A stretch of 64,000 nucleotides of DNA from Methanoregulaceae archaeon (GCA_013331415.1 DUGL01000188.1:6579-70578), one strand, 5' to 3'; positions 49,144 to 57,373 are shown, counted from the stretch's first letter. The notes: generated by a model not told the origin, from the sequence alone. Numbers and translations are program-made.

Positions 49144-49482
49144 TTATCCTGATAAACCCGTTTTTTCCGGCAGGGGCTGATTATTTCTCCGTAGTCTCAT
49201 AAAAATGGCTCTGTAGAAAACCTTCAGGATGAAAAATTGTAAGTGTCTGTGGATGTTACAGACAATTATTTTTCCAGCGATTTCTTTCATCTGGATGAGG
49301 ATGATCCTGGCTTTGACGTCGCCGCTAAACTTTCTTTTCAGGACTGAAAATTTGATTTCGACGATTTGCCGTCTTGGGTATACGGCGGTATCGAACATAC
49401 GAGCCATTTCCTGACGGTATTTCGCTGATGATATCGTTATTCCAGGAACGGATCGGAATAACTGAATTAGCAAGGAGGTCAT
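49144..49482 (-). mobile_element. C-terminal fragment of a DDE transposase (IS4/IS5-superfamily-like)
   Basis: RRQIVEIKFSVLKRKFSGDVKARI...QMKEIAGKIIVCNIHR matches the conserved C-terminal block of DDE_Tnp_1-type transposases. No N-terminal catalytic part is present. Confidence 0.55.
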
Positions 49483-49597
49483 CTCGGATCAATTGTATTC
49501 GCTCACTTAATTTTGATCCACTGCACCCACCAAAAAGTGATCCAGTCCCGGAACAAGATCACCCATTCCTCGCATATAAAGAGAGCGGTGATCACCG

Positions 49598-50300
49598 CTA
49601 CCGGTAACTCGTTCCCGTCATATTCAGAATAATAGCCCGATGGGTGATTCGGTCAAGCAGGGGGGCGGTGAGTGCTTTGTCATGGAATATTCCTGACCCA
49701 TTCAGAGAACATGAGATTGGACGTTACCATCGTGCTGGAAGTCTCATACCGGGATGCGAGCAACTGGAACAGCAGTTCATCTCCTGACAGGTCAAAGGTG
49801 ATGTACCCCAATTCATCGAGGATCGACAGGTCCACCCGCTTCAGCTGCCGGAGAAGATAGGTCAACCGTCGTTCCTGTTTTGCCTCGATCAATTCGTTCA
49901 CCAGCCCTGCCGCCGTCTTGAACACCACCCGGAAATTCTGTTCGCGGCACGGATTCCAGTGGCAATGGCCAGATGAGTCTTCCCCGTCCCCGAGTTCCCG
50001 ATCATCAGGATATTCCGGTGCTCCTCAAGGAACGTCAGGTCCTTGAGGGTAAGTATGTGGGCTCTCCCGTCGTCAGGCAGTGCATCGACAGTCAGATCAT
50101 CAAACCGTTTCATGGTAGGGAATCCTGCAATACGAATAGCGTTCAACCGATGCCTGGCCATTCTGAGTTCGGATTCCGTTTCCAGGGCATGGATAGGAAC
50201 GATTCAATCTGCTGGGTACAGGGTGCCGGGTCCCGGATCTTTTCATGTGTCAAAAAATTTGCATTGGATGATAGACCTGGATAGCGGCGATGTATTACAG
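49598..50300 (-). pseudogene. istB: IS21-family istB helper ATPase gene, broken into at least three frames
   Basis: ALETESELRMARHRLNAIRIAGFP, then Walker A MIGNSGTGKTHLA (ORF 49898..50161), then VVFKTAAGLVNEL...DELGYITF...LLFQLLASRYE (ORF 49680..49928), then a third frame FHDKALTAPLLDRITHRAIILNMTGTSYR*. The upstream boundary is approximate. Confidence 0.75.
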
Positions 50301-50591
50301 GAAGGTTGAGAACCGAGCGGTACCATGAGGGCGGGATTATGCTAAGAAAACCGAGAGAGGGGTGTGGGGGCAAAGTATCGCTCACCGTGATCATCAACGG
50401 GCAGGAATGAGAGGGCTCGGGGACACCAGACACCTATAAGCAGGTAATCTGAAATCATTTTCGTTACTGAACCTGCAGAATGCCCCTCGACTCTTTCCTT
50501 ATTTCCGGGAACTGCCACGAGCGGTGGTTGCGATTAATTTTTTTAAGCGATTTTTTTACCTCTATTCGGACGTAGGGCGTATCAGCACTGC

Positions 50592-51077
50592 TCACAGTCG
50601 TTTTCCGATGGATTCCATGGCTTCGACTACTGTGTTGGGGCGCGGTTTGATGATTGCCACAGGAATGTCAACTATTTTTTCAACGATAGAAGCGAGGACT
50701 GGTGCACAGACAATACCCGCAGCTCCCTCGCGTTGTGCAGTGACTGCTGCGATGATACATTCGTCAATAGAATTTGCCGCATATCCGCGGACTGAGCATA
50801 TCACGCCTTTGACAATTACCGTCTGTCCTTCGATTTCATCGAGCAGGAACTTGGCCGCTATCACTGCAATAAACTGGGAATACTTGGGTTCAAGGTGCCC
50901 GATGATTTTTCTGACCGTGGAAAACCGGGGATCACTTTCACCGGAGAGAATTTTATACAGCGTGGGAGCAGGGATCCCGGTCTTCTCCGCTAATTCCCGA
51001 ACGGTCATATTTCTCCGGGCAAGCTCGCTGTTGACCGCTTCGCAAAAACCCTGCGCGAATATTGTTTTTGAGAGCAT
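50592..51077 (-). CDS. XRE-type HTH transcriptional regulator with a C-terminal domain
   Basis: RNMTVRELAEKTGIPAPTLYKILSGESDPRFSTVRKI helix-turn-helix. Divergent from the 51180 operon. Confidence 0.7.
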   Translation of the reverse strand: MLSKTIFAQGFCEAVNSELARRNMTVRELAEKTGIPAPTLYKILSGESDPRFSTVRKIIGHLEPKYSQFIAVIAAKFLLDEIEGQTVIVKGVICSVRGYAANSIDECIIAAVTAQREGAAGIVCAPVLASIVEKIVDIPVAIIKPRPNTVVEAMESIGKRL

Positions 51078-51179
51078 AATAATAATTAAAGGATAATTGT
51101 TGTAATAAATTTAACCATATGGTATAAAAAATTTGTTGAAATCAGAAAATACTATAATGCCGGTCGTGTACTTCTGAGT

Positions 51180-51962
51180 ATGGAAACAGAACCGATCCAG
51201 TGCATCACGATCCTTGCCGGTCGTGACCGGAACGGGGTTGCTGAACCATTTGGACGGATCGACATAAACCCCGGTGATACTATCTCCATTGTCGGACCCA
51301 CGGGATCGGGAAAAACAGCATTCATCAATGATATCGAAGTCTTTGCCTGTGGTGATACCATCACCGGGCGAACGATTCTTGTCAATAACAGGATGCCGCC
51401 GGAATCGTTTGTCCGTGATCCGTCTAAAAAGCCCATAGCCATGATCACCCAGAATACCAAATGTTTAAGCGATCTTACCGTCCGGGAATTCCTCGCTATG
51501 CATGTGCGGGCGAGGGGGATCACAAAAGCGGATATCTGTACAAAGACCCTTGCACTTGCAAACGAGTTTACCGGAGAGAAAATGCACCTTGATATGCGCA
51601 TGACCGGCCTTTCCGGGGGGCAGACCCGCTCCCTGATGGTTGCAGATGCAGTTCTGATCAGCAATGCACCAGTAATCCTGCTGGACGAGGTGGAGAATGC
51701 GGGCATCTTTAAGGACCGCGTGATCTCCTGCCTGAAGTCCCACGGGAAAGCAGTAATCTTTGTCACCCATGACCCGCTGGTCTCTCTCCTGTCAGATCGC
51801 CGCATTGTCATGAGGAATGGTTCTGTTGAGCGTGTGCTCACTCCTGATGGCAATGAACGCGAAGCCCTCACTGTAATTTCCCGGATGGATGCACTTATGG
51901 GCAGGCTCAGGGAGAAGATCCGGGCCGGCGAACTTCTCACCGGGCCGGTCGGTTCTGCATGA
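51180..51962 (+). CDS. Stand-alone ABC-type ATPase (no permease partner in the operon)
   Basis: Walker A GPTGSGKTA, signature LSGGQTR, atypical Walker B ILLDEVENAG, H-loop VTHD. Confidence 0.75.
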   Translation: METEPIQCITILAGRDRNGVAEPFGRIDINPGDTISIVGPTGSGKTAFINDIEVFACGDTITGRTILVNNRMPPESFVRDPSKKPIAMITQNTKCLSDLTVREFLAMHVRARGITKADICTKTLALANEFTGEKMHLDMRMTGLSGGQTRSLMVADAVLISNAPVILLDEVENAGIFKDRVISCLKSHGKAVIFVTHDPLVSLLSDRRIVMRNGSVERVLTPDGNEREALTVISRMDALMGRLREKIRAGELLTGPVGSA

Positions 51963-52666
51963 AACTGCTGATTGTTGCCGGGCCACCCAGTGCGGGAAAA
52001 ACCGCGGTAGTCCGGCAGATCCTGCGCTCTGTGGCTGGTTTGTGGAAAATCGCCTACCTGAAAATAGATGTCGTCAGGGCGTTTGAAGATGAAGAGCTGA
52101 GGGCAGAGTTTTCCATACCAACAAAAAAGATCTATTCCGGCGACCTCTGTCCGGATCATATGGGGATCATGATCCTGGCAGACACACTTGTATGGGCGGA
52201 GCAGGAAAAGGCTGATATATTGATAATTGAAAGTGCGGGACTGTGCCTCCGCTGTACCCCCTACACCACCCAGTCACTGGGCATTGTCGTTTTATCCTCT
52301 GTCAGTGGGACCAATGCACCGCTCAAGATGGCCCCGATGATTGCGCTCGCTGATATTGCTGTAGTGACAAAAACCGATCTTGTTTCACAGGCTGAAAAGG
52401 AAGTCTTTAGGGAAAAGATCCGCACCGTTTCACCCACCATAGATATTGTTGAGACCAATGCGATCCAGGGTACAGGCATGCGGTACCTGATGCAGGCCGT
52501 GGTATCCACACCGGAAATCACCGATGCAAAGATGATCAGGCTCCGGGGAATCCCCCCGCTGGGAGTCTGCACGGTCTGTGCCGGAAAACAGGAGATCGGG
52601 TGGCAGAACCATTGCGGAGTTGTCAGGAAACTTGACAGCACAGAAGCCATCTTCCGGGGGGATTGA
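51959..52666 (+). CDS. P-loop NTPase of the G3E/SIMIBI type (HypB/UreG/CooC-like metallochaperone candidate)
   Basis: GPPSAGKTA, IIESAGLCLRC and VTKTDL (NKxD-like) motifs, plus Cys motifs GDLCPDH and C-terminal CTVCAG. ATGA overlap with the upstream gene. Confidence 0.6.
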   Translation: MKLLIVAGPPSAGKTAVVRQILRSVAGLWKIAYLKIDVVRAFEDEELRAEFSIPTKKIYSGDLCPDHMGIMILADTLVWAEQEKADILIIESAGLCLRCTPYTTQSLGIVVLSSVSGTNAPLKMAPMIALADIAVVTKTDLVSQAEKEVFREKIRTVSPTIDIVETNAIQGTGMRYLMQAVVSTPEITDAKMIRLRGIPPLGVCTVCAGKQEIGWQNHCGVVRKLDSTEAIFRGD

Positions 52667-53286
52667 TCACGGTTTTTACTCCCCCTAATCGTAACTGCGG
52701 AGCGTGTGGGGTTTCTTGCTGCGATGAATTTCTGGAACTGGTGAAAGAGGGAAAAAAGCAGGAGACGGACTGCCCATTTTATTGTGGGTATGAAACGCCC
52801 TGTGTGCCAGATACGGTCATGTACACGCTTACCGATATCAGGGGGAAGGCGTACGATTTTGTCGTCGCCCCTTTTCACGGCGAAATATCCGCCCGAAAAA
52901 TGATCCTGCCGTTCCGGCCGGATCTTGTCGAACGGTGGAACATCGTACAAGGTGATCTGGTCTCGGGCCGGCCAATGGGCCAGGGATGTCCGGTTCCACA
53001 TTTCCTCGAAGTGGTCAAGGCAAATCCGGTGACGGGTCTCTTGACCTGTCATGTAGTCGGTCCGCTGGCAGCCCGGGGCAGATCGTGCCACCAGATTGAG
53101 GCCTATCATGTGATTGGATTTGAAGGCAAGGCCGTACATATCATCAACGAACCTGCCATGGGACACCGCATGAGTTTTCTCCCCTCCTTCTGCATGCTCC
53201 AGATTGCACATACCGGGGTCGTGAACCAGGTGATCCAGTCCGGTGACGAGATGAACGTCCGCGTAGAGGATATCAGGATATTATGA
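52663..53286 (+). CDS. Cys-rich putative Fe-S binding protein
   Basis: The N-terminus NCGACGVSCCDEF...CPFYC resembles the putative Fe-S cluster domain at the N-terminus of RnfB or corrinoid/Fe-S proteins. Only a TTG start is available, and it overlaps the upstream TGA. Confidence 0.5.
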   Translation: MITVFTPPNRNCGACGVSCCDEFLELVKEGKKQETDCPFYCGYETPCVPDTVMYTLTDIRGKAYDFVVAPFHGEISARKMILPFRPDLVERWNIVQGDLVSGRPMGQGCPVPHFLEVVKANPVTGLLTCHVVGPLAARGRSCHQIEAYHVIGFEGKAVHIINEPAMGHRMSFLPSFCMLQIAHTGVVNQVIQSGDEMNVRVEDIRIL

Positions 53287-54527
53287 AGACCCAGGGAGAG
53301 ATCAATGCAAAGATCCGTAGCGGCACTGCGGTAGTCATGACCGCTGCAGAGTTCAAGCAGCACATCCGTAATGGGGATAAGATTACTCCTGATGAAGTGG
53401 ATGTGGTGACGACCGGGACCTTTGGCGTGATGTCTGGCACTTATGCTGTGCTCAGCATCCCTGTTGCGGAAAAAAAGACGTTTAAAACGGCCGACCGGGT
53501 ATGGCTCAACGGCGTTCCTGCTGTGCCGGGCCCGTGCCCGAACGAAAACCTTGGGCTTGTGGATCTGATCGTTTACGGGACCGCCCATGCGAACGCCAGC
53601 TATGGGGGAGGACACCTCTTCCGTGACCTTGTAGAGGGAAATCCTGTCGATGTGGTGGTAAAAGCAAAACGGAAAACGTTCAACCGCACAGTCACTCTCG
53701 GAGATATTGAATTTGCACGCCTTGCAACAACCCGGAGTGCATTCAAAAACTATACTGCGCTGGTAAACTCCCGGCACCGCCTGGTGAACTCAACAATATT
53801 TTCCGTCACGGCTATGCAGGGCCCTCTCATTGCAGCAAGTATCAGTGGGTGCGGGGAGATCAATCCACTGGAAAATGACCCCTGCATGCGGACTATCGGA
53901 CCGGGAACGCACATACTGGTAAACGGCGCTGATGGATATGTGATGGGAACAGGCACCCGCAGCTCTGCTGAACGTCCCAACCTCTCGTTTTTTGCTGACT
54001 TAAAGGGGATGGAGCCCGGTATGTTGGGGGGTTTTGTGACGTCAGCCGGTCCCGAATGTCTCGTATCCTGCGCAGTGCCGATTCCGGTTCTTGACAAAGA
54101 GTCCCTTCGGGCACTTTCGGTACTCAATGAACAGATCCCGCTTCCGGTTGCTGATGTTGCGGACCGGACTCCGCTTGCCTCAACAACCTATGGCGAGGTC
54201 TGGAATGGGACCGATCCGGTAATCAGGTTTGAGCCTTTGCTCTGTAAATCCTGTGAACCATGTACTGCGGCGGCCAGGTGTCCTGCGGGCGCAATTTCTC
54301 CCGGTGGCCGGATTGATTACCATCATTGCGTACATTGTGGAACCTGCACATTCACCTGTCCAGCCCATGCGTATCATGGCCGGCTTGGGTCGCTCACGGT
54401 AAATGCCTCGCAGGTCCCGGTCACCCTGCGGCAGTCCAGCCTTACCCATGCAAAACGGCTCTGTGAACGGCTAAAGCACAGGATAGTGAACGGTGAATTT
54501 TTCTTGACCGGCCCCTCAGGGGAGTGA
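53283..54527 (+). CDS. COG1900 (DUF39, aspartate-semialdehyde sulfurtransferase family) protein with a C-terminal 2x[4Fe-4S] ferredoxin domain; candidate sulfoacetaldehyde-to-CoM enzyme (MJ1681/ComF-type, methanogenesis marker 16)
   Basis: N-terminus EINAKIRSGTAVVMTAAEFK...VDVVTTGTFGVMSG, typical of COG1900. C-terminal CKSCEPCTAAARCP and CVHCGTCTFTCP motifs. ATGA overlap upstream, and cysteate synthase and comDE lie immediately downstream. Confidence 0.6.
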   Translation: MKTQGEINAKIRSGTAVVMTAAEFKQHIRNGDKITPDEVDVVTTGTFGVMSGTYAVLSIPVAEKKTFKTADRVWLNGVPAVPGPCPNENLGLVDLIVYGTAHANASYGGGHLFRDLVEGNPVDVVVKAKRKTFNRTVTLGDIEFARLATTRSAFKNYTALVNSRHRLVNSTIFSVTAMQGPLIAASISGCGEINPLENDPCMRTIGPGTHILVNGADGYVMGTGTRSSAERPNLSFFADLKGMEPGMLGGFVTSAGPECLVSCAVPIPVLDKESLRALSVLNEQIPLPVADVADRTPLASTTYGEVWNGTDPVIRFEPLLCKSCEPCTAAARCPAGAISPGGRIDYHHCVHCGTCTFTCPAHAYHGRLGSLTVNASQVPVTLRQSSLTHAKRLCERLKHRIVNGEFFLTGPSGE

Positions 54528-54533
54528 TTTTTT

Positions 54534-55805
54534 ATGGGAGATTACCAGATCCAGTGCGCCGCATGCGGGCAGTTGTACCCTGACACAGGCTCCAATGAAT
54601 GCCCTGACCGGCATGCCGCTCTCCAGCGCACCGTATATACCGCACAGCGCCTGCAGTGTGCTGACCTGCCGGGAATGATGAGGTTTTACGACTGGCTGCC
54701 GATTCACTGCAAGCCGGCCGTAACAGCAGGACCGGTCACCTACCGGAGCGTGGCGTTTGCAAGGGAGATGGGGTTTTCAAACCTGTATATCACGTTCAAC
54801 GGATTCTGGCCCGAGAAAGGGGCGTCTGTAAAAACCTGCTCATTTAAAGAACTGGAGGCTGTCCCGACCATGCAGCGGGCATCGGAAAAGAAGAGTGGAA
54901 TTCTTGTCGTGGCATCAGCAGGAAATACCGGTCGGGCCTTTGCACAAATTGCTGCAGAGATGAATACGCCCGTAGTTGTGGTAATTCCCAAAAAATCATT
55001 ACCCCTCATATGGACAACGATTCAGACAGATCAGGTTCTCCTTATCACGGTCGATGGGGATTATTCGGATGCGATTAGCCGGAGTATCGCGATTGCCGCA
55101 CTTCCTCATCTCACTGCGGAAGGCGGGGCAAAAAATTGTGCCCGGAGGGATGGTATGGGGACAGTGATGCTGGATGCGGCAACAACAATCGGCAGGATTC
55201 CTGATTATTACGTGCAGGCGGTGGGGAGTGGGACCGGTGCGATTGCTGCATGGGAAGCTGCACAGCGACTGGTCCGGGACGGCCGATATGGCAGCCACCT
55301 GCCTCACATGATCCTATCGCAGAACCTCCCGTTTGTACCGATGGCAAACGCGTGGAAAGCAGGGAGAAGAGAGATTGATCCAATGATTGATATGGCTGAT
55401 GCAACGCAGGCAATTTCGCAGGTCTATGCCGATGTCCTGACGAACCGGAATCCTCCCTATGGCATTACGGGAGGATTGTTTGATTGCCTCACCGAAACCG
55501 GCGGGGAGATCTTTACGGTGAGTAATGATGAAGCACGGCAGGCACAGCGGCTCTTTGAAGAGTGTGAGGGAATCGATCTGGATCCTGCAGCAGGGGTGAC
55601 CGTTGCGTCCCTTATAACGGCCGCACGGGATGGAAATATCGATCCCTGCAGGGATGTAATGATAAATATTACCGGTGGGGGTTATAAGCGGGTGCAGGAA
55701 GCGTATGATCTGGTTCCGGTAAATGCTGCATTAGCAACCGACCGCACTACCGGTATGGACCAGATCGCCGGATTCGTCAATGACTGGGTGAAAGAACATG
55801 CATGA
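54534..55805 (+). CDS. Cysteate synthase (threonine synthase-like PLP enzyme)
   Basis: Zn-ribbon-like N-terminus YQIQCAACGQLYPD..NECPDRH, PLP-lysine context CSFKELEA, and GNTGRAF. Its adjacency to and overlap with comDE matches the Methanosarcinales/Methanomicrobiales CoM pathway arrangement. Confidence 0.65.
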   Translation: MGDYQIQCAACGQLYPDTGSNECPDRHAALQRTVYTAQRLQCADLPGMMRFYDWLPIHCKPAVTAGPVTYRSVAFAREMGFSNLYITFNGFWPEKGASVKTCSFKELEAVPTMQRASEKKSGILVVASAGNTGRAFAQIAAEMNTPVVVVIPKKSLPLIWTTIQTDQVLLITVDGDYSDAISRSIAIAALPHLTAEGGAKNCARRDGMGTVMLDAATTIGRIPDYYVQAVGSGTGAIAAWEAAQRLVRDGRYGSHLPHMILSQNLPFVPMANAWKAGRREIDPMIDMADATQAISQVYADVLTNRNPPYGITGGLFDCLTETGGEIFTVSNDEARQAQRLFEECEGIDLDPAAGVTVASLITAARDGNIDPCRDVMINITGGGYKRVQEAYDLVPVNAALATDRTTGMDQIAGFVNDWVKEHA

Positions 55806-56931
55806 GGATCAATGCATCGATCTCCTTTTGGATCAGGGCATCAATCTTGCGGTCTCGCTTCCCTGTGACAAGGCAAAAGATCTCTTTGCCCTTCTGCCGT
55901 TCTCTCTTGAAACTGTAGAACTCCTGAGAGAGGAAGACGGTGTGGGCGTCTGTGCAGGTGCATATCTTGCCGGACGAAGGCCTGCAATGGTCATCCAGAG
56001 CTCAGGCCTTGGCAACATGCTCAATGCACTTCTCTCGCTCTCACGAACCTATGAACTGCCGCTGCCGGTGATCGCAAGCTGGCGGGGAGTCTACAAAGAG
56101 ACCATCCCTGCGCAGGTTCCGTTCAATGCAGCTCTTCCCGGGATTCTCAAAGCCGCCGACATCCCGTTTGTCATCGTTGATAATCCGTCCGGGTTCGACC
56201 GGATCAGAGAAATGATAGAGACGGCATACCGCTCTCACACGCCGGCCGTAGCATTGATCTCACCCCATTGCTGGGAGGGGACTCCGGTAAGCGAACGGGA
56301 GGAAGAGATTACAGACCGGTCACGGAAGATCGACTTTGTCCATGAACGGACCATCCCCTCCCCGACAATGACCCGGCTGGACGCAATCCGCTCGATTGTC
56401 CCGCATCTACATGACGCTGCTGTAGTCTCAAATATCGGCTTTCCGAGTAAGGAACTGTTCTGGACAGAGGATCGTAAGGAAAATTTCTACATGCTCGGTA
56501 GTTACACGCAGGCATCCCCAGTTGGTTTTGGGATAGCGCTCTCCTCGCGCCGCAGAACGATTATCATAGATGGGGATGGAAGCCTGCTCGGCACTGCCAT
56601 CCTCCCGGTAATCGCTGCAAAAAAGCCACGCAACCTCACCATTGCCTGTCTTGATAACGGCGTATTCGGCAGCACCGGAAACCAGATGACCCCGGCGTAT
56701 CGGAAGGTTGATCTTGAACTCTATGTCCGTGCGTGCGGTTTTGAGCAGACGGCAAAGGTTACGTCTGCAGAAGAGATTGGCGGGGCAATTGCATCCCTTG
56801 AACAAGGGCCCTCATTCATTCATGTGGTAATCAGGCCGGGCAACTCAGATGCTCCCAACATCCCTCTCACCCCTCACGAGATCCGGGATCGATTCATGAA
56901 GACGATCCGAAACGACGCGATACAAGACTGA
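55798..56931 (+). CDS. comDE: Sulfopyruvate decarboxylase, fused alpha/beta subunits
   Basis: 377 aa. The N-terminal half is ComD-like (VSLPCDKAKDL...QSSGLGN). The C-terminal half carries a ThDP-binding motif IIIDGDGSLLG...LDNGVFGSTGNQ. Confidence 0.8.
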   Translation: MHEDQCIDLLLDQGINLAVSLPCDKAKDLFALLPFSLETVELLREEDGVGVCAGAYLAGRRPAMVIQSSGLGNMLNALLSLSRTYELPLPVIASWRGVYKETIPAQVPFNAALPGILKAADIPFVIVDNPSGFDRIREMIETAYRSHTPAVALISPHCWEGTPVSEREEEITDRSRKIDFVHERTIPSPTMTRLDAIRSIVPHLHDAAVVSNIGFPSKELFWTEDRKENFYMLGSYTQASPVGFGIALSSRRRTIIIDGDGSLLGTAILPVIAAKKPRNLTIACLDNGVFGSTGNQMTPAYRKVDLELYVRACGFEQTAKVTSAEEIGGAIASLEQGPSFIHVVIRPGNSDAPNIPLTPHEIRDRFMKTIRNDAIQD

Positions 56932-57044
56932 CGCATTCATGAGAGTTAAGCTGAGACCAGGGGCCGGCCCATGAAAATGTATGAGCTGGCTAACCCCATC
57001 CATGAGATTATGGATTGTATCGAAAGTCAAATTGCGTCGGTGCA

Positions 57045-57064
57045 CCCCGCTGCAAGCAGCGGGG
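57045..57064. repeat. GC-rich hairpin, copy 1 (ccccgctg caag cagcgggg)
   Basis: Perfect 8-bp stem with a 4-nt loop, in the convergent intergenic region between comDE and the kinase gene. Confidence 0.6.
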
Positions 57065-57144
57065 CATGATTCGCACCGCCGCCTTGTTGCACTGTTGACT
57101 GCATAATTCTTGGTTTTATGTAATCCAAGATCGCCTTACCTTCT

Positions 57145-57164
57145 CCCCGCTGCAAGCTGCGGGG
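57145..57164. repeat. GC-rich hairpin, copy 2 (ccccgctgcaagctgcgggg)
   Basis: Same 20-mer with one substitution, exactly 100 nt downstream of copy 1. Confidence 0.6.
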
Positions 57165-57373
57165 TATACGAATAAAATCAAGCAAGACAGCCGATGAAGT
57201 AACAGGCCCAGAGACCGTAGAATGACCGGGATTGGGGCATCAGAGACCAGTTAAATTCACAGACCGTCTCCCCGGGGTTTGGAGCCCGGATTATTCGTGC
57301 ACGCGTGTGTACCCGACAATACCCTGGAGTGGGATGCGGATCGGGGCATTGAATGCGGATCAGGGTGTTGAGA

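What the first reader, a model, noticed from the sequence alone, without database searches (positions are those of the whole stretch)
51180..56931. Six-gene operon coupling an ABC-like ATPase, a G3E-type NTPase and a Cys-rich Fe-S protein to coenzyme M biosynthesis
**Coupling.** Genes 51180, 51959, 52663, 53283, 54534 and 55798 are joined by ATGA or TTGA overlaps (51959, 52663, 53283), a 6-nt gap (54527/54534) and an 8-nt overlap (55798/55805).

**Last three genes.** They are a COG1900-ferredoxin protein, cysteate synthase and ComDE. The COG1900-ferredoxin protein is of the type reported for M. jannaschii MJ1681 as converting sulfoacetaldehyde to CoM. Together these make up the phosphoserine/cysteate route to coenzyme M.

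**First three genes.** They have no assigned role. One is an ABC ATPase without a permease and with an atypical Walker B (DEVEN). One is a HypB/UreG/CooC-like P-loop protein with Cys motifs. One is a protein with a CGACGxxCC Fe-S-type N-terminus.

The sulfur donor and the cluster or metal maturation for the thiol-forming step are not understood. This trio is therefore a candidate maturation or sulfur-relay module for that enzyme.
Basis: partly seen in the sequence, partly recalled or inferred. Interest (0 to 1): 0.6.

Follow-up and report, generated by a model that had tools for sequence, protein, structure and literature searches.

The report
Unexplained ATPase-GTPase-FeS trio heading CoM operon
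This methanogen's coenzyme M operon starts with three conserved genes of unknown function (a soluble ABC ATPase, a nickel-chaperone-like GTPase and a small iron-sulfur protein) that, across archaea and some bacteria, travel with the enzymes that build sulfonates from sulfite, not only with the final thiol-forming enzyme.

Summary
Six + strand genes (51180-56931) are joined by 4-nt or 8-nt overlaps and one 6-nt gap.

**Last three genes.** They are MMP16/ComF, cysteate synthase (CS) and ComDE, all above curated cut-offs.

**First three genes.** They form a fixed cassette, ABC ATPase > G3E GTPase > COG2000 Fe-S protein, present in 39 of 40 and about 78 of 80 related loci. Chadwick et al. 2025 (PMC12068725, Fig 2B legend) already noted this co-localisation and called the role unknown. 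This scan has also met the trio several times on other DNA.

**What I add:**
- The COG2000 tree has two deep clades. This window's clade sits before MMP16 and was co-transferred with it. The other clade sits directly behind CS (Methanosarcinales-type genomes) or behind the non-homologous ComA (45 of 47 Methanobacteriota genomes).
- 93 of 95 trio-bearing genomes in the phylum sample have CS, but only 80 of 95 have MMP16.
- One genus keeps trio-CS-ComDE with no MMP16.
- Trio-bearing Bacteroidales and Spirochaetota have CS or ComA, and 3 of 5 have no COG1900 protein.

The trio is therefore not an MMP16-specific maturase. My best reading is a metal/Fe-S module serving the inorganic-sulfur steps of sulfonate/CoM synthesis. 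Two tests for a "missing sulfite source" showed no complementarity. The mechanism remains open.

The parts
50592..51077 (-). Divergent HTH_3 regulator (161 aa) with an unassigned C-terminal domain. It is conserved beside the trio-led operon in relatives.
   Evidence: Pfam HTH_3. tblastn finds it at 53-61% identity, divergent from the trio, in 10 Methanomicrobiales loci. It is at 40% identity in a Methanotrichaceae CS-trio locus and at 37% in one Methanobacteriaceae locus (L107).
51078..51179 (.). AT-rich intergenic region with TATA-like stretches. It is the likely shared promoter region.
   Evidence: Sequence read directly; GC falls to 0.446 here. This is inferred, not mapped.
51180..51962 (+). 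Soluble ABC-type ATPase (260 aa), first gene of the cassette.
   Evidence: PF00005. Invariant across 36 homologues: Walker A, Q-loop Gln, LSGGQxR, D-E-x-ENAGI and THDP. No permease is adjacent.
51959..52666 (+). G3E-family (HypB/UreG-like) P-loop GTPase (235 aa) with Cys/His metal motifs.
   Evidence: PF02492. HypB model scores 67.5 bits, below its 121.2 cut-off. Best solved relatives are UreG and HypB. Invariant features: C64-P-D-H67, GLC96xRC99, TKxD, C204xxC207...H218.
52663..53286 (+). COG2000 Fe-S protein (207 aa). It has an N-terminal 4-Cys domain and a beta-rich domain with no solved relative found.
   Evidence: PF04060. Invariant in 71 sequences: C12 C15 C20 C37 R103 C109 P110 H113 C177 H183. 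AF2 model pLDDT 90.2. Foldseek finds no hit at E<=0.001 and VIA-wide best Z is 3.7.
53283..54527 (+). MMP16 / ComF (COG1900 plus a 2x[4Fe-4S] ferredoxin domain), the coenzyme M synthase.
   Evidence: TIGR03287 509.7 bits and PF01837 342 bits. It falls in the trio-linked MMP16 clade.
54534..55805 (+). Cysteate synthase (PLP-dependent; phosphoserine + sulfite).
   Evidence: TIGR03844 590.6 bits against a cut-off of 324.9.
55798..56931 (+). Fused sulfopyruvate decarboxylase ComDE.
   Evidence: TIGR03845 198.9 bits and TIGR03846 237.3 bits, both above cut-off.
57045..57164 (.). Two near-identical GC-rich hairpins 100 nt apart, between the convergent ComDE and kinase genes. They may mark the end of the transcript.
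   Evidence: Exact pattern search gives 2 matches against 0 expected. Their function was not tested.

Best explanation
**The operon.** The six genes are one operon for coenzyme M synthesis by the phosphoserine/cysteate route (cysteate synthase, ComDE, MMP16/ComF). It is led by an autonomous, widely distributed three-gene cassette.

**Proposed roles (inferred).**
- COG2000 is the working metalloprotein. It would carry a [4Fe-4S] cluster on four N-terminal Cys and a second site built from the invariant Cys109, His113, Cys177 and His183.
- The G3E GTPase has a UreG-like C-P-x-H motif and further invariant Cys/His. It would load or exchange the metal on COG2000.
- The soluble ABC ATPase would drive assembly or turnover.

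**Proposed function (inferred).** The module prepares, carries or hands over the inorganic sulfur co-substrate of sulfonate/CoM synthesis. Its most general partner is the sulfite-consuming enzyme (cysteate synthase or ComA). In this window's clade it is also coupled to MMP16. It is not an MMP16-specific maturase.

**Shown versus inferred.** Shown here: gene identities, cassette conservation, neighbourhoods, co-occurrence and invariant residues. Inferred: metal binding, division of labour among the three proteins, and the sulfur-supply role.
For: **Cassette conservation.** Order and strand are fixed in 39 of 40 loci of the phylum and in about 78 of 80 loci from Methanobacteriota, Methanotrichaceae, Bacteroidales and Spirochaetota.

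**Neighbourhoods.**
- trio-MMP16-CS-ComDE: 12 loci.
- trio-CS-ComDE without MMP16: 4 loci.
- CS-trio: 10 loci.
- trio-MMP16: 4 loci (all).
- ComA-trio: 41 loci, and 45 of 47 trio-bearing genomes in a Methanobacteriota sample.

Two non-homologous sulfite-using enzymes thus occupy the same slot within one COG2000 clade.

**Co-occurrence.**
- 93 of 95 trio genomes have CS (baseline 187 of 400).
- 80 of 95 have MMP16.
- 47 of 47 have ComA in Methanobacteriota (baseline 95 of 101).
- 6 of 6 trio-bearing bacteria have CS or ComA.

**Sulfur-handling neighbours.** A class-V aminotransferase (cysteine-desulfurase-like) lies inside the cassette in one family, and ThiI lies directly downstream in another.

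**Invariant residues.** Cys/His sets and catalytic motifs are conserved in all three proteins.

**Transcript hint.** RNA-library contigs from two studies bridge the 53283 junction. This is a weak hint only.
Against: - No biochemical or genetic data exist for any trio member. Chadwick 2025 calls the role unknown.
- Many CS-, ComA- and MMP16-bearing genomes lack the trio: 94 CS genomes and 94 MMP16 genomes in the phylum sample, 48 ComA genomes in Methanobacteriota, and 88 of 89 CS- or ComA-bearing genomes in the Bacteroidales sample. It is therefore dispensable for these enzymes as such.
- One complete genome (G254) has a trio but no CS, ComA or MMP16.
- Second trio copies and the Methanocaldococcus and Methanopyri copies lie away from CoM genes.
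- The bacterial co-occurrence is weak: 59% of sampled Bacteroidales have CS or ComA anyway.
- Related genomes are not independent samples.
Confidence: 0.45

Rival explanations
1. First reader's idea. The trio matures the metal/Fe-S centre of MMP16, the thiol-forming COG1900 enzyme, or relays sulfur to it.
For: - The trio lies directly upstream of MMP16 with a 4-nt overlap here and in 16 related loci.
- Trio-adjacent MMP16s form one clade (SH-aLRT 93-98). That clade includes extra MMP16 copies in two Methanosarcinaceae-family genomes; native copies from three genomes of that family, including one of these two, lie in the other clade. So trio and MMP16 moved together.
- In another group MMP16 lies convergent about 1.1 kb from the CS-trio unit.
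Against: - 15 of 95 trio genomes have no MMP16, and 94 MMP16 genomes have no trio.
- 3 of 5 trio-bearing bacteria have no PF01837 protein.
- The clade II trio follows ComA or CS.
- Conserved Cys/His of MMP16 are the same in the trio-linked and trio-free clades, except Cys259.
- MMP16 works in M. acetivorans (PMC12068725). I did not test that genome for the trio.
Confidence: 0.15
2. The trio is an ATP-driven low-potential electron-delivery unit, comparable in principle to the ABC-type A2 protein of MCR activation or to RACo/CFeSP. It would feed the reductive thiolation step.
For: - The N-terminal PF04060 4-Cys domain is the type found at the N-termini of the CFeSP large subunit and RnfB.
- The ABC ATPase is soluble and catalytically intact.
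- MMP16 has a ferredoxin domain that must be reduced.
Against: - This does not explain the link to ComA or CS, which need no electrons.
- It does not explain the trio in bacteria without COG1900.
- It does not explain why a metal-chaperone-type GTPase is always present.
Confidence: 0.1
3. The trio is a general SUF-like Fe-S or metal-centre assembly system with housekeeping clients. It merely sits beside CoM genes through inherited gene order.
For: - It has an ABC ATPase without a permease (as SufC is, from my own knowledge), and a cysteine-desulfurase-like gene lies inside some cassettes.
- Some copies lie in unrelated neighbourhoods.
- G254 keeps a trio without any CoM gene.
Against: - The neighbourhood has been re-made at least four ways (before MMP16, before CS, behind CS, behind ComA) in distant lineages.
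- In Methanomicrobiales, trio and CS are gained and lost together: both 43, one only 2, neither 22.
- The family is small, with 111 clusters among 1.84 billion representatives, and is absent from most prokaryotes (1 of 150 Bacteroidales).
Confidence: 0.12

Closest known systems
'ATPase / Ni2+-binding GTPase / COG2000-domain Fe-S protein' genes beside CoM genes (Chadwick, Williams, Shalvarjian & Nayak 2025, PLoS Genet, PMC12068725, Fig 2B legend)
   Same: It is the same three gene families in the same kind of operon with MMP16, cysteate synthase and ComDE. This window is an instance of that published observation.
   Different: The paper gives no role and no analysis of the trio. Added here:
- two clades;
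- the ComA and CS slot;
- occurrence without MMP16 and in bacteria;
- invariant residues;
- no solved structural relative found for the COG2000 domain.
UreG/HypB G3E GTPases that deliver nickel to urease and [NiFe]-hydrogenase
   Same: Gene 2 shares the P-loop fold family (PF02492). It has a Cys-Pro-x-His motif at the position of the UreG CPH motif, a Cys in the switch region, and a (N/T)KxD motif.
   Different: It scores below the HypB and UreG equivalog cut-offs (67.5 against 121.2; 29.3 against 204.2). It has an extra invariant C-terminal CxxC...H motif. No urease or hydrogenase genes are adjacent. The metal is unknown.
SufBC2D Fe-S assembly complex (SufC is a soluble ABC ATPase; SufS is a class-V cysteine desulfurase)
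   Same: Both have a permease-less ABC ATPase working with a Cys-rich partner. A PF00266 gene is inserted in the cassette in one family.
   Different: No SufB/SufD-like protein is present. The ABC protein matches no SufC model and has ENAGI in place of the D-loop. A G3E GTPase is an obligatory member.
Dsr-LP / Fsr siroheme proteins, proposed as the sulfite source for CoM (Susanti & Mukhopadhyay 2012, PMC3448663)
   Same: Both are candidates for the unresolved origin of the sulfite needed by ComA and cysteate synthase.
   Different: There is no sequence or fold relation. NIR_SIR proteins are present in trio-bearing and in trio-free methanogens alike, so the two are not alternatives.

Membership tests
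ABC ATPase superfamily (PF00005) | Walker A, Q-loop, LSGGQ signature, Walker B Asp-Glu, H-loop | tested here: met
   All are present in gene 1 and invariant in 36 homologues.
ABC transporter (importer/exporter) | A partner permease or fused membrane domain | tested here: not met
   No membrane-protein gene lies in the operon or its flanks. The same three-gene cassette recurs without one in about 120 loci.
G3E P-loop GTPases (PF02492 CobW/HypB/UreG) | Family domain above the Pfam cut-off, with P-loop and (N/T)KxD motifs | tested here: met
   51.8 bits against a cut-off of 20.7. GxxGxGKT and TKxD are conserved.
HypB or UreG proper (TIGR00073, TIGR00101) | Score above the equivalog cut-off | tested here: not met
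   HypB 67.5 bits against 121.2; UreG 29.3 bits against 204.2.
PF04060 'putative Fe-S cluster' domain (as at the N-termini of RnfB and the CFeSP large subunit) | Four conserved Cys, with score above cut-off | tested here: met
   30.7 bits against 23. C12, C15, C20 and C37 are invariant in 71 sequences. Cluster binding itself was not tested.
Methanogenesis marker 16 / ComF (TIGR03287) | Score above cut-off; COG1900 domain plus ferredoxin domain | tested here: met
   509.7 bits against 363.95; PF01837 plus Fer4 hits. The CoM synthase role rests on PMC12068725.
Cysteate synthase (TIGR03844) | Score above the equivalog cut-off | tested here: met
   590.6 bits against 324.9.
Sulfopyruvate decarboxylase ComDE (TIGR03845 + TIGR03846) | Both halves above cut-off | tested here: met
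   198.9 bits against 147.95 and 237.3 bits against 221.5, in one fused ORF.
Published CoM-associated trio (Chadwick 2025) | ATPase, Ni-type GTPase and COG2000 Fe-S protein co-localised with CoM genes | tested here: met
SUF-type Fe-S assembly | SufB/SufD scaffold with a SufC ATPase | tested here: inconclusive
   No SufB/D-like gene was seen and no SufC model ranks among the top NCBIfam hits. No direct profile comparison was made.

The most novel reading that the evidence does not exclude
The cassette is the long-missing system by which strict anaerobes obtain, or safely hand over, sulfite for sulfonate synthesis (coenzyme M, cysteate, sulfolactate). It would be a non-siroheme enzyme: a metal plus [4Fe-4S] protein (COG2000), matured by a G3E GTPase and powered by an ABC ATPase. 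It would convert reduced sulfur (sulfide or a cysteine-derived persulfide) to sulfite, or channel sulfite to cysteate synthase or ComA.
Probability: 0.2. Interest if true: 0.9.

Novelty: new variant of a known kind. Interest (0 to 1): 0.6.

Why it matters
Coenzyme M is essential for all methane formation and for anaerobic alkane oxidation. Two parts of its synthesis are still unexplained: where the sulfite for the first C-S bond comes from (PMC3448663), and what donates sulfur and electrons at the last step (PMC12068725).

A conserved three-protein module tracks the sulfite-using enzymes of both non-homologous routes, and in this clade also MMP16. It is the most concrete genetic handle on these questions.

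Its Fe-S protein has no solved structural relative. The module also occurs in anaerobic bacteria that have cysteate synthase or ComA, so a result would reach beyond methanogens.

Tried and rejected
- **Complex prediction.** Complex prediction on ABC + G3E + COG2000 with alignments gave no verdict (score 0.00). It counts neither way.
- **Fold searches.** The COG2000 model (pLDDT 90) gave no Foldseek hit at E<=0.001 and a best VIA-wide Z of 3.7. Sequence search of PDB found only the N-terminal motif, at E about 0.8. The Atlas returned only the protein's own family.
- **Complementarity test in bacteria.** Under a "missing sulfite source" idea, trio-bearing bacteria should lack assimilatory sulfate reduction. 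CysD and NIR_SIR are present in 3 of 5 and absent in 2 of 5. This gives no support.
- **Complementarity test in methanogens.** Trio-bearing methanogens should lack Dsr-LP/Fsr-type proteins. NIR_SIR is present in 5 of 5 trio-bearing and 4 of 5 trio-free genomes. This gives no support.
- **MMP16 ligands.** The trio-linked and trio-free MMP16 clades have the same ligand Cys/His, except Cys259.
- **Promoter/terminator scan.** The sigma-70 and terminator scan was at chance level and is not suited to archaea.
- **Literature.** A search for 'source of sulfite' with coenzyme M found nothing.
- **RNA contigs.** They cover the whole operon, but contigs cannot show a transcript, its ends or its level.
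- **Model coordinates.** They were not available to scripts, so I could not check whether Cys109, His113, Cys177 and His183 lie together.


Full report
**1. Observation**

They are joined by ATGA (51959), TTGA (52663) and ATGA (53283) overlaps, a 6-nt gap (54527/54534) and an 8-nt overlap (55798/55805).

The unit is bounded upstream by an AT-rich intergenic region and a divergent HTH gene. Downstream it is bounded by two GC-rich hairpins and a convergent PAS histidine kinase.

The last three genes score far above curated cut-offs:
- MMP16, TIGR03287: 510 bits.
- Cysteate synthase, TIGR03844: 591 bits.
- Fused ComDE, TIGR03845 plus TIGR03846.

The first three genes are:
- an ABC ATPase (PF00005);
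- a G3E GTPase (PF02492; HypB model 67.5 bits, below its cut-off);
- a 207-aa protein whose first 40 residues match the 4-Cys PF04060 domain.

The window belongs to a 1.73-Mb, 80%-complete MAG. The closest homologues of gene 3 are named Methanoregula. The DNA recurs in hydrocarbon, coal, oil-facility and sediment metagenomes.

**2. Already in the literature**

Chadwick et al. 2025 (PMC12068725) showed that MMP16 is the main CoM synthase in M. acetivorans. [quoted passage not shown] Apart from one unrelated engineering article, no other paper in the library mentions COG2000.

This scan has also met the trio on other genomes. I reached my reading before seeing those notes, and they are not independent evidence.

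**3. The trio is a fixed cassette**

The COG2000 family is small: 111 clusters at 50% identity among 1.84 billion representatives.

In a 400-genome sample of the window's phylum, 95 genomes have a full-length COG2000 match (E < 1e-50). Weaker matches cover only the N-terminal Fe-S domain, inside ORFs of about 470 aa.

I fetched 40 loci around full-length matches. In 39 of them ABC, G3E and COG2000 lie in that order on one strand; the fortieth is cut by a contig end.

A divergent subfamily (about 30% identity) was found in 562 places of the species-genome collection. In the best 80 loci the same cassette is present almost throughout: 72 loci show all three genes, 6 loci with the cassette near a contig or locus start show G3E and COG2000 only, and two ANME-2 loci show COG2000 alone. 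These loci come from Methanobacteriaceae, Methanopyri, Methanocaldococcus, Methanotrichaceae, Bacteroidales and a Spirochaetota MAG.

**4. Neighbourhoods**

| Arrangement | Loci | Where |
|---|---|---|
| trio-MMP16-CS-ComDE | 12 | five Methanomicrobiales families |
| trio-CS-ComDE, no MMP16 | 4 | one genus (g4); no TIGR03287 match anywhere in its genomes, and the four genomes tested have a single long COG1900 protein |
| CS-trio | 10 | six of them with MMP16 convergent about 1.1 kb away |
| trio-MMP16 alone | 4 | - |
| trio alone | 9 | - |

In one family a class-V aminotransferase (cysteine-desulfurase-like) lies between the GTPase and COG2000 genes. In another family ThiI follows COG2000 directly.

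In 41 Methanobacteriaceae-type loci the gene directly upstream, on the same strand, is ComA (PF02679). In a 100-genome sample of that phylum, 45 of 47 trio-bearing genomes have ComA 1.6-3.3 kb upstream on the same strand.

**5. Trees**

The COG2000 tree has two deep clades, each with SH-aLRT 99.
- **Clade I** holds this window. It includes the trio>MMP16, trio>CS and trio>ThiI arrangements and those with the desulfurase-like gene inside.
- **Clade II** holds ComA>trio, CS>trio, the bacterial copies and the Methanocaldococcus and Methanopyri copies.

Within clade II, two non-homologous enzymes that share only the co-substrate sulfite occupy the same slot.

The MMP16 tree shows that trio-adjacent MMP16s form one clade. 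That clade includes extra MMP16 copies in two Methanosarcinaceae-family genomes. Native copies from three genomes of that family, including one of these two, lie in the other clade. So clade I trio and MMP16 moved together. Two MMP16s inside this clade have lost the trio.

**6. Co-occurrence (same 400 genomes)**

- CS is present in 93 of 95 trio genomes (baseline 187 of 400).
- MMP16 is present in 80 of 95 (baseline 174 of 400).
- In Methanomicrobiales (67 genomes): both trio and CS 43, trio only 1, CS only 1, neither 22. Four of the "neither" genomes were tested and also lack ComA.
- In Methanobacteriota: 47 of 47 trio genomes have ComA, but so do 48 of 54 others.
- Five trio-bearing bacteria each have exactly one of CS or ComA. 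Only 2 of 5 have any COG1900 protein.
- In 150 sampled Bacteroidales the trio is rare (1 genome, which has CS). CS (32) or ComA (57) are common and mutually exclusive. The bacterial association is therefore weak, roughly p = 0.04, and related genomes are not independent.

**7. The proteins**

- **ABC ATPase.** All catalytic motifs are invariant, and ENAGI replaces the usual D-loop.
- **G3E GTPase.** Invariant features are C-P-D-H, GLCxRC, TKxD and a C-terminal CxxC...H motif, giving five Cys and two His. Its nearest solved relatives are UreG and HypB.
- **COG2000.** Four N-terminal Cys are invariant, as are R103, C109, P110, H113, C177 and H183, across 71 archaeal and bacterial sequences. The AF2 model is confident (pLDDT 90.2) and shows a beta-rich domain at 62-207 with no solved relative.

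**8. Tests of specific ideas**

- **MMP16-specific maturation** is contradicted by the genomes without MMP16 or without any COG1900 protein, and by the many MMP16 genomes without the trio. MMP16 ligand residues do not differ between trio-linked and trio-free clades, except Cys259.
- **The trio as the only sulfite source** gains no support. Canonical CysD and sulfite-reductase genes occur in 3 of 5 trio-bearing bacteria. Dsr-LP-type genes occur in trio-bearing and trio-free methanogens alike.
- The source of sulfite for CoM remains an acknowledged open question (PMC3448663).

**9. Reading**

The evidence shows a dedicated accessory module of sulfonate/CoM synthesis. It is most generally tied to the sulfite-consuming enzyme, and in this clade also to MMP16.

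I infer that COG2000 is a metal plus Fe-S protein. It would be served by a metal-chaperone GTPase and an ABC ATPase, and would act on the inorganic sulfur co-substrate. I hold this at about 0.45. The sharper version, sulfite formation or hand-over, I hold at about 0.2.

**10. Local history**

- Four of five other species of the same genus lack the trio, CS and MMP16.
- The fifth (G359) has MMP16-CS-ComDE at only about 50% identity to the window's proteins and no trio.

This operon was therefore probably acquired horizontally. RNA-library contigs from two studies bridge the trio/MMP16 junction, which is a weak hint of co-transcription.

Noticed in passing
window 50592-51077 (-): An HTH_3 regulator with an unassigned C-terminal domain lies divergent from the operon. 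It is conserved in that position in 10 Methanomicrobiales loci (53-61% identity), including those without MMP16. It is also beside a Methanotrichaceae CS-trio locus (40% identity). It is a candidate CoM-operon regulator.
   Followed up: partly
window 49144-57200; G359:C11 (L162): The operon looks horizontally acquired. Four of five same-genus species lack the trio, CS and MMP16. The fifth has MMP16-CS-ComDE at only about 50% protein identity and no trio. IS remnants lie upstream, and GC is somewhat lower than in the preceding block.
   Followed up: partly
window 57045-57064 and 57145-57164: Two near-identical 20-nt GC-rich hairpins lie exactly 100 nt apart between the convergent ComDE and kinase genes (2 matches, 0 expected by chance).
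   Followed up: partly
L041 9965-11128, L063 8266-9471; L045 8474-9697: In one family (f14) a class-V aminotransferase (cysteine-desulfurase-like) sits inside the cassette and a zf-AN1 protein follows it. In another family (f10) ThiI follows COG2000 directly.
   Followed up: partly
L033, L034, L037, L039 (G254, G354, G274, G279): Some Methanomicrobiales carry a second trio copy away from CoM genes. One complete genome (G254) has only such a copy and has no CS, ComA or MMP16. The role of this copy is unexplained.
   Followed up: no
phylum sample, families f1-f6: 22 of 67 Methanomicrobiales genomes (mostly over 95% complete) have no CS and no trio. All but one (G309) also lack MMP16, and the four tested have no ComA. 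They are probable CoM auxotrophs or users of an unknown route.
   Followed up: partly
150 Bacteroidales genomes (order of G401): Cysteate synthase (32 genomes) and ComA (57 genomes) are mutually exclusive in the sample. This looks like two alternative routes to sulfonates in this order.
   Followed up: no
L156 8649-9152 (-), Methanocaldococcus sp. 16A: A stand-alone McrD-like gene lies convergent, immediately after the trio. No CoM gene is adjacent there.
   Followed up: no
L142, L143 (ANME-2 MAGs): COG2000 stands without an adjacent ABC or G3E gene, next to CcmE-like and polyprenyl synthetase genes.
   Followed up: no
L111 4401-4979 (-) and 38 other Methanobacteriaceae-type loci: A small protein with a pyruvate-kinase C-terminal-like domain (PF02887) is conserved divergent from ComA-trio.
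   Followed up: no
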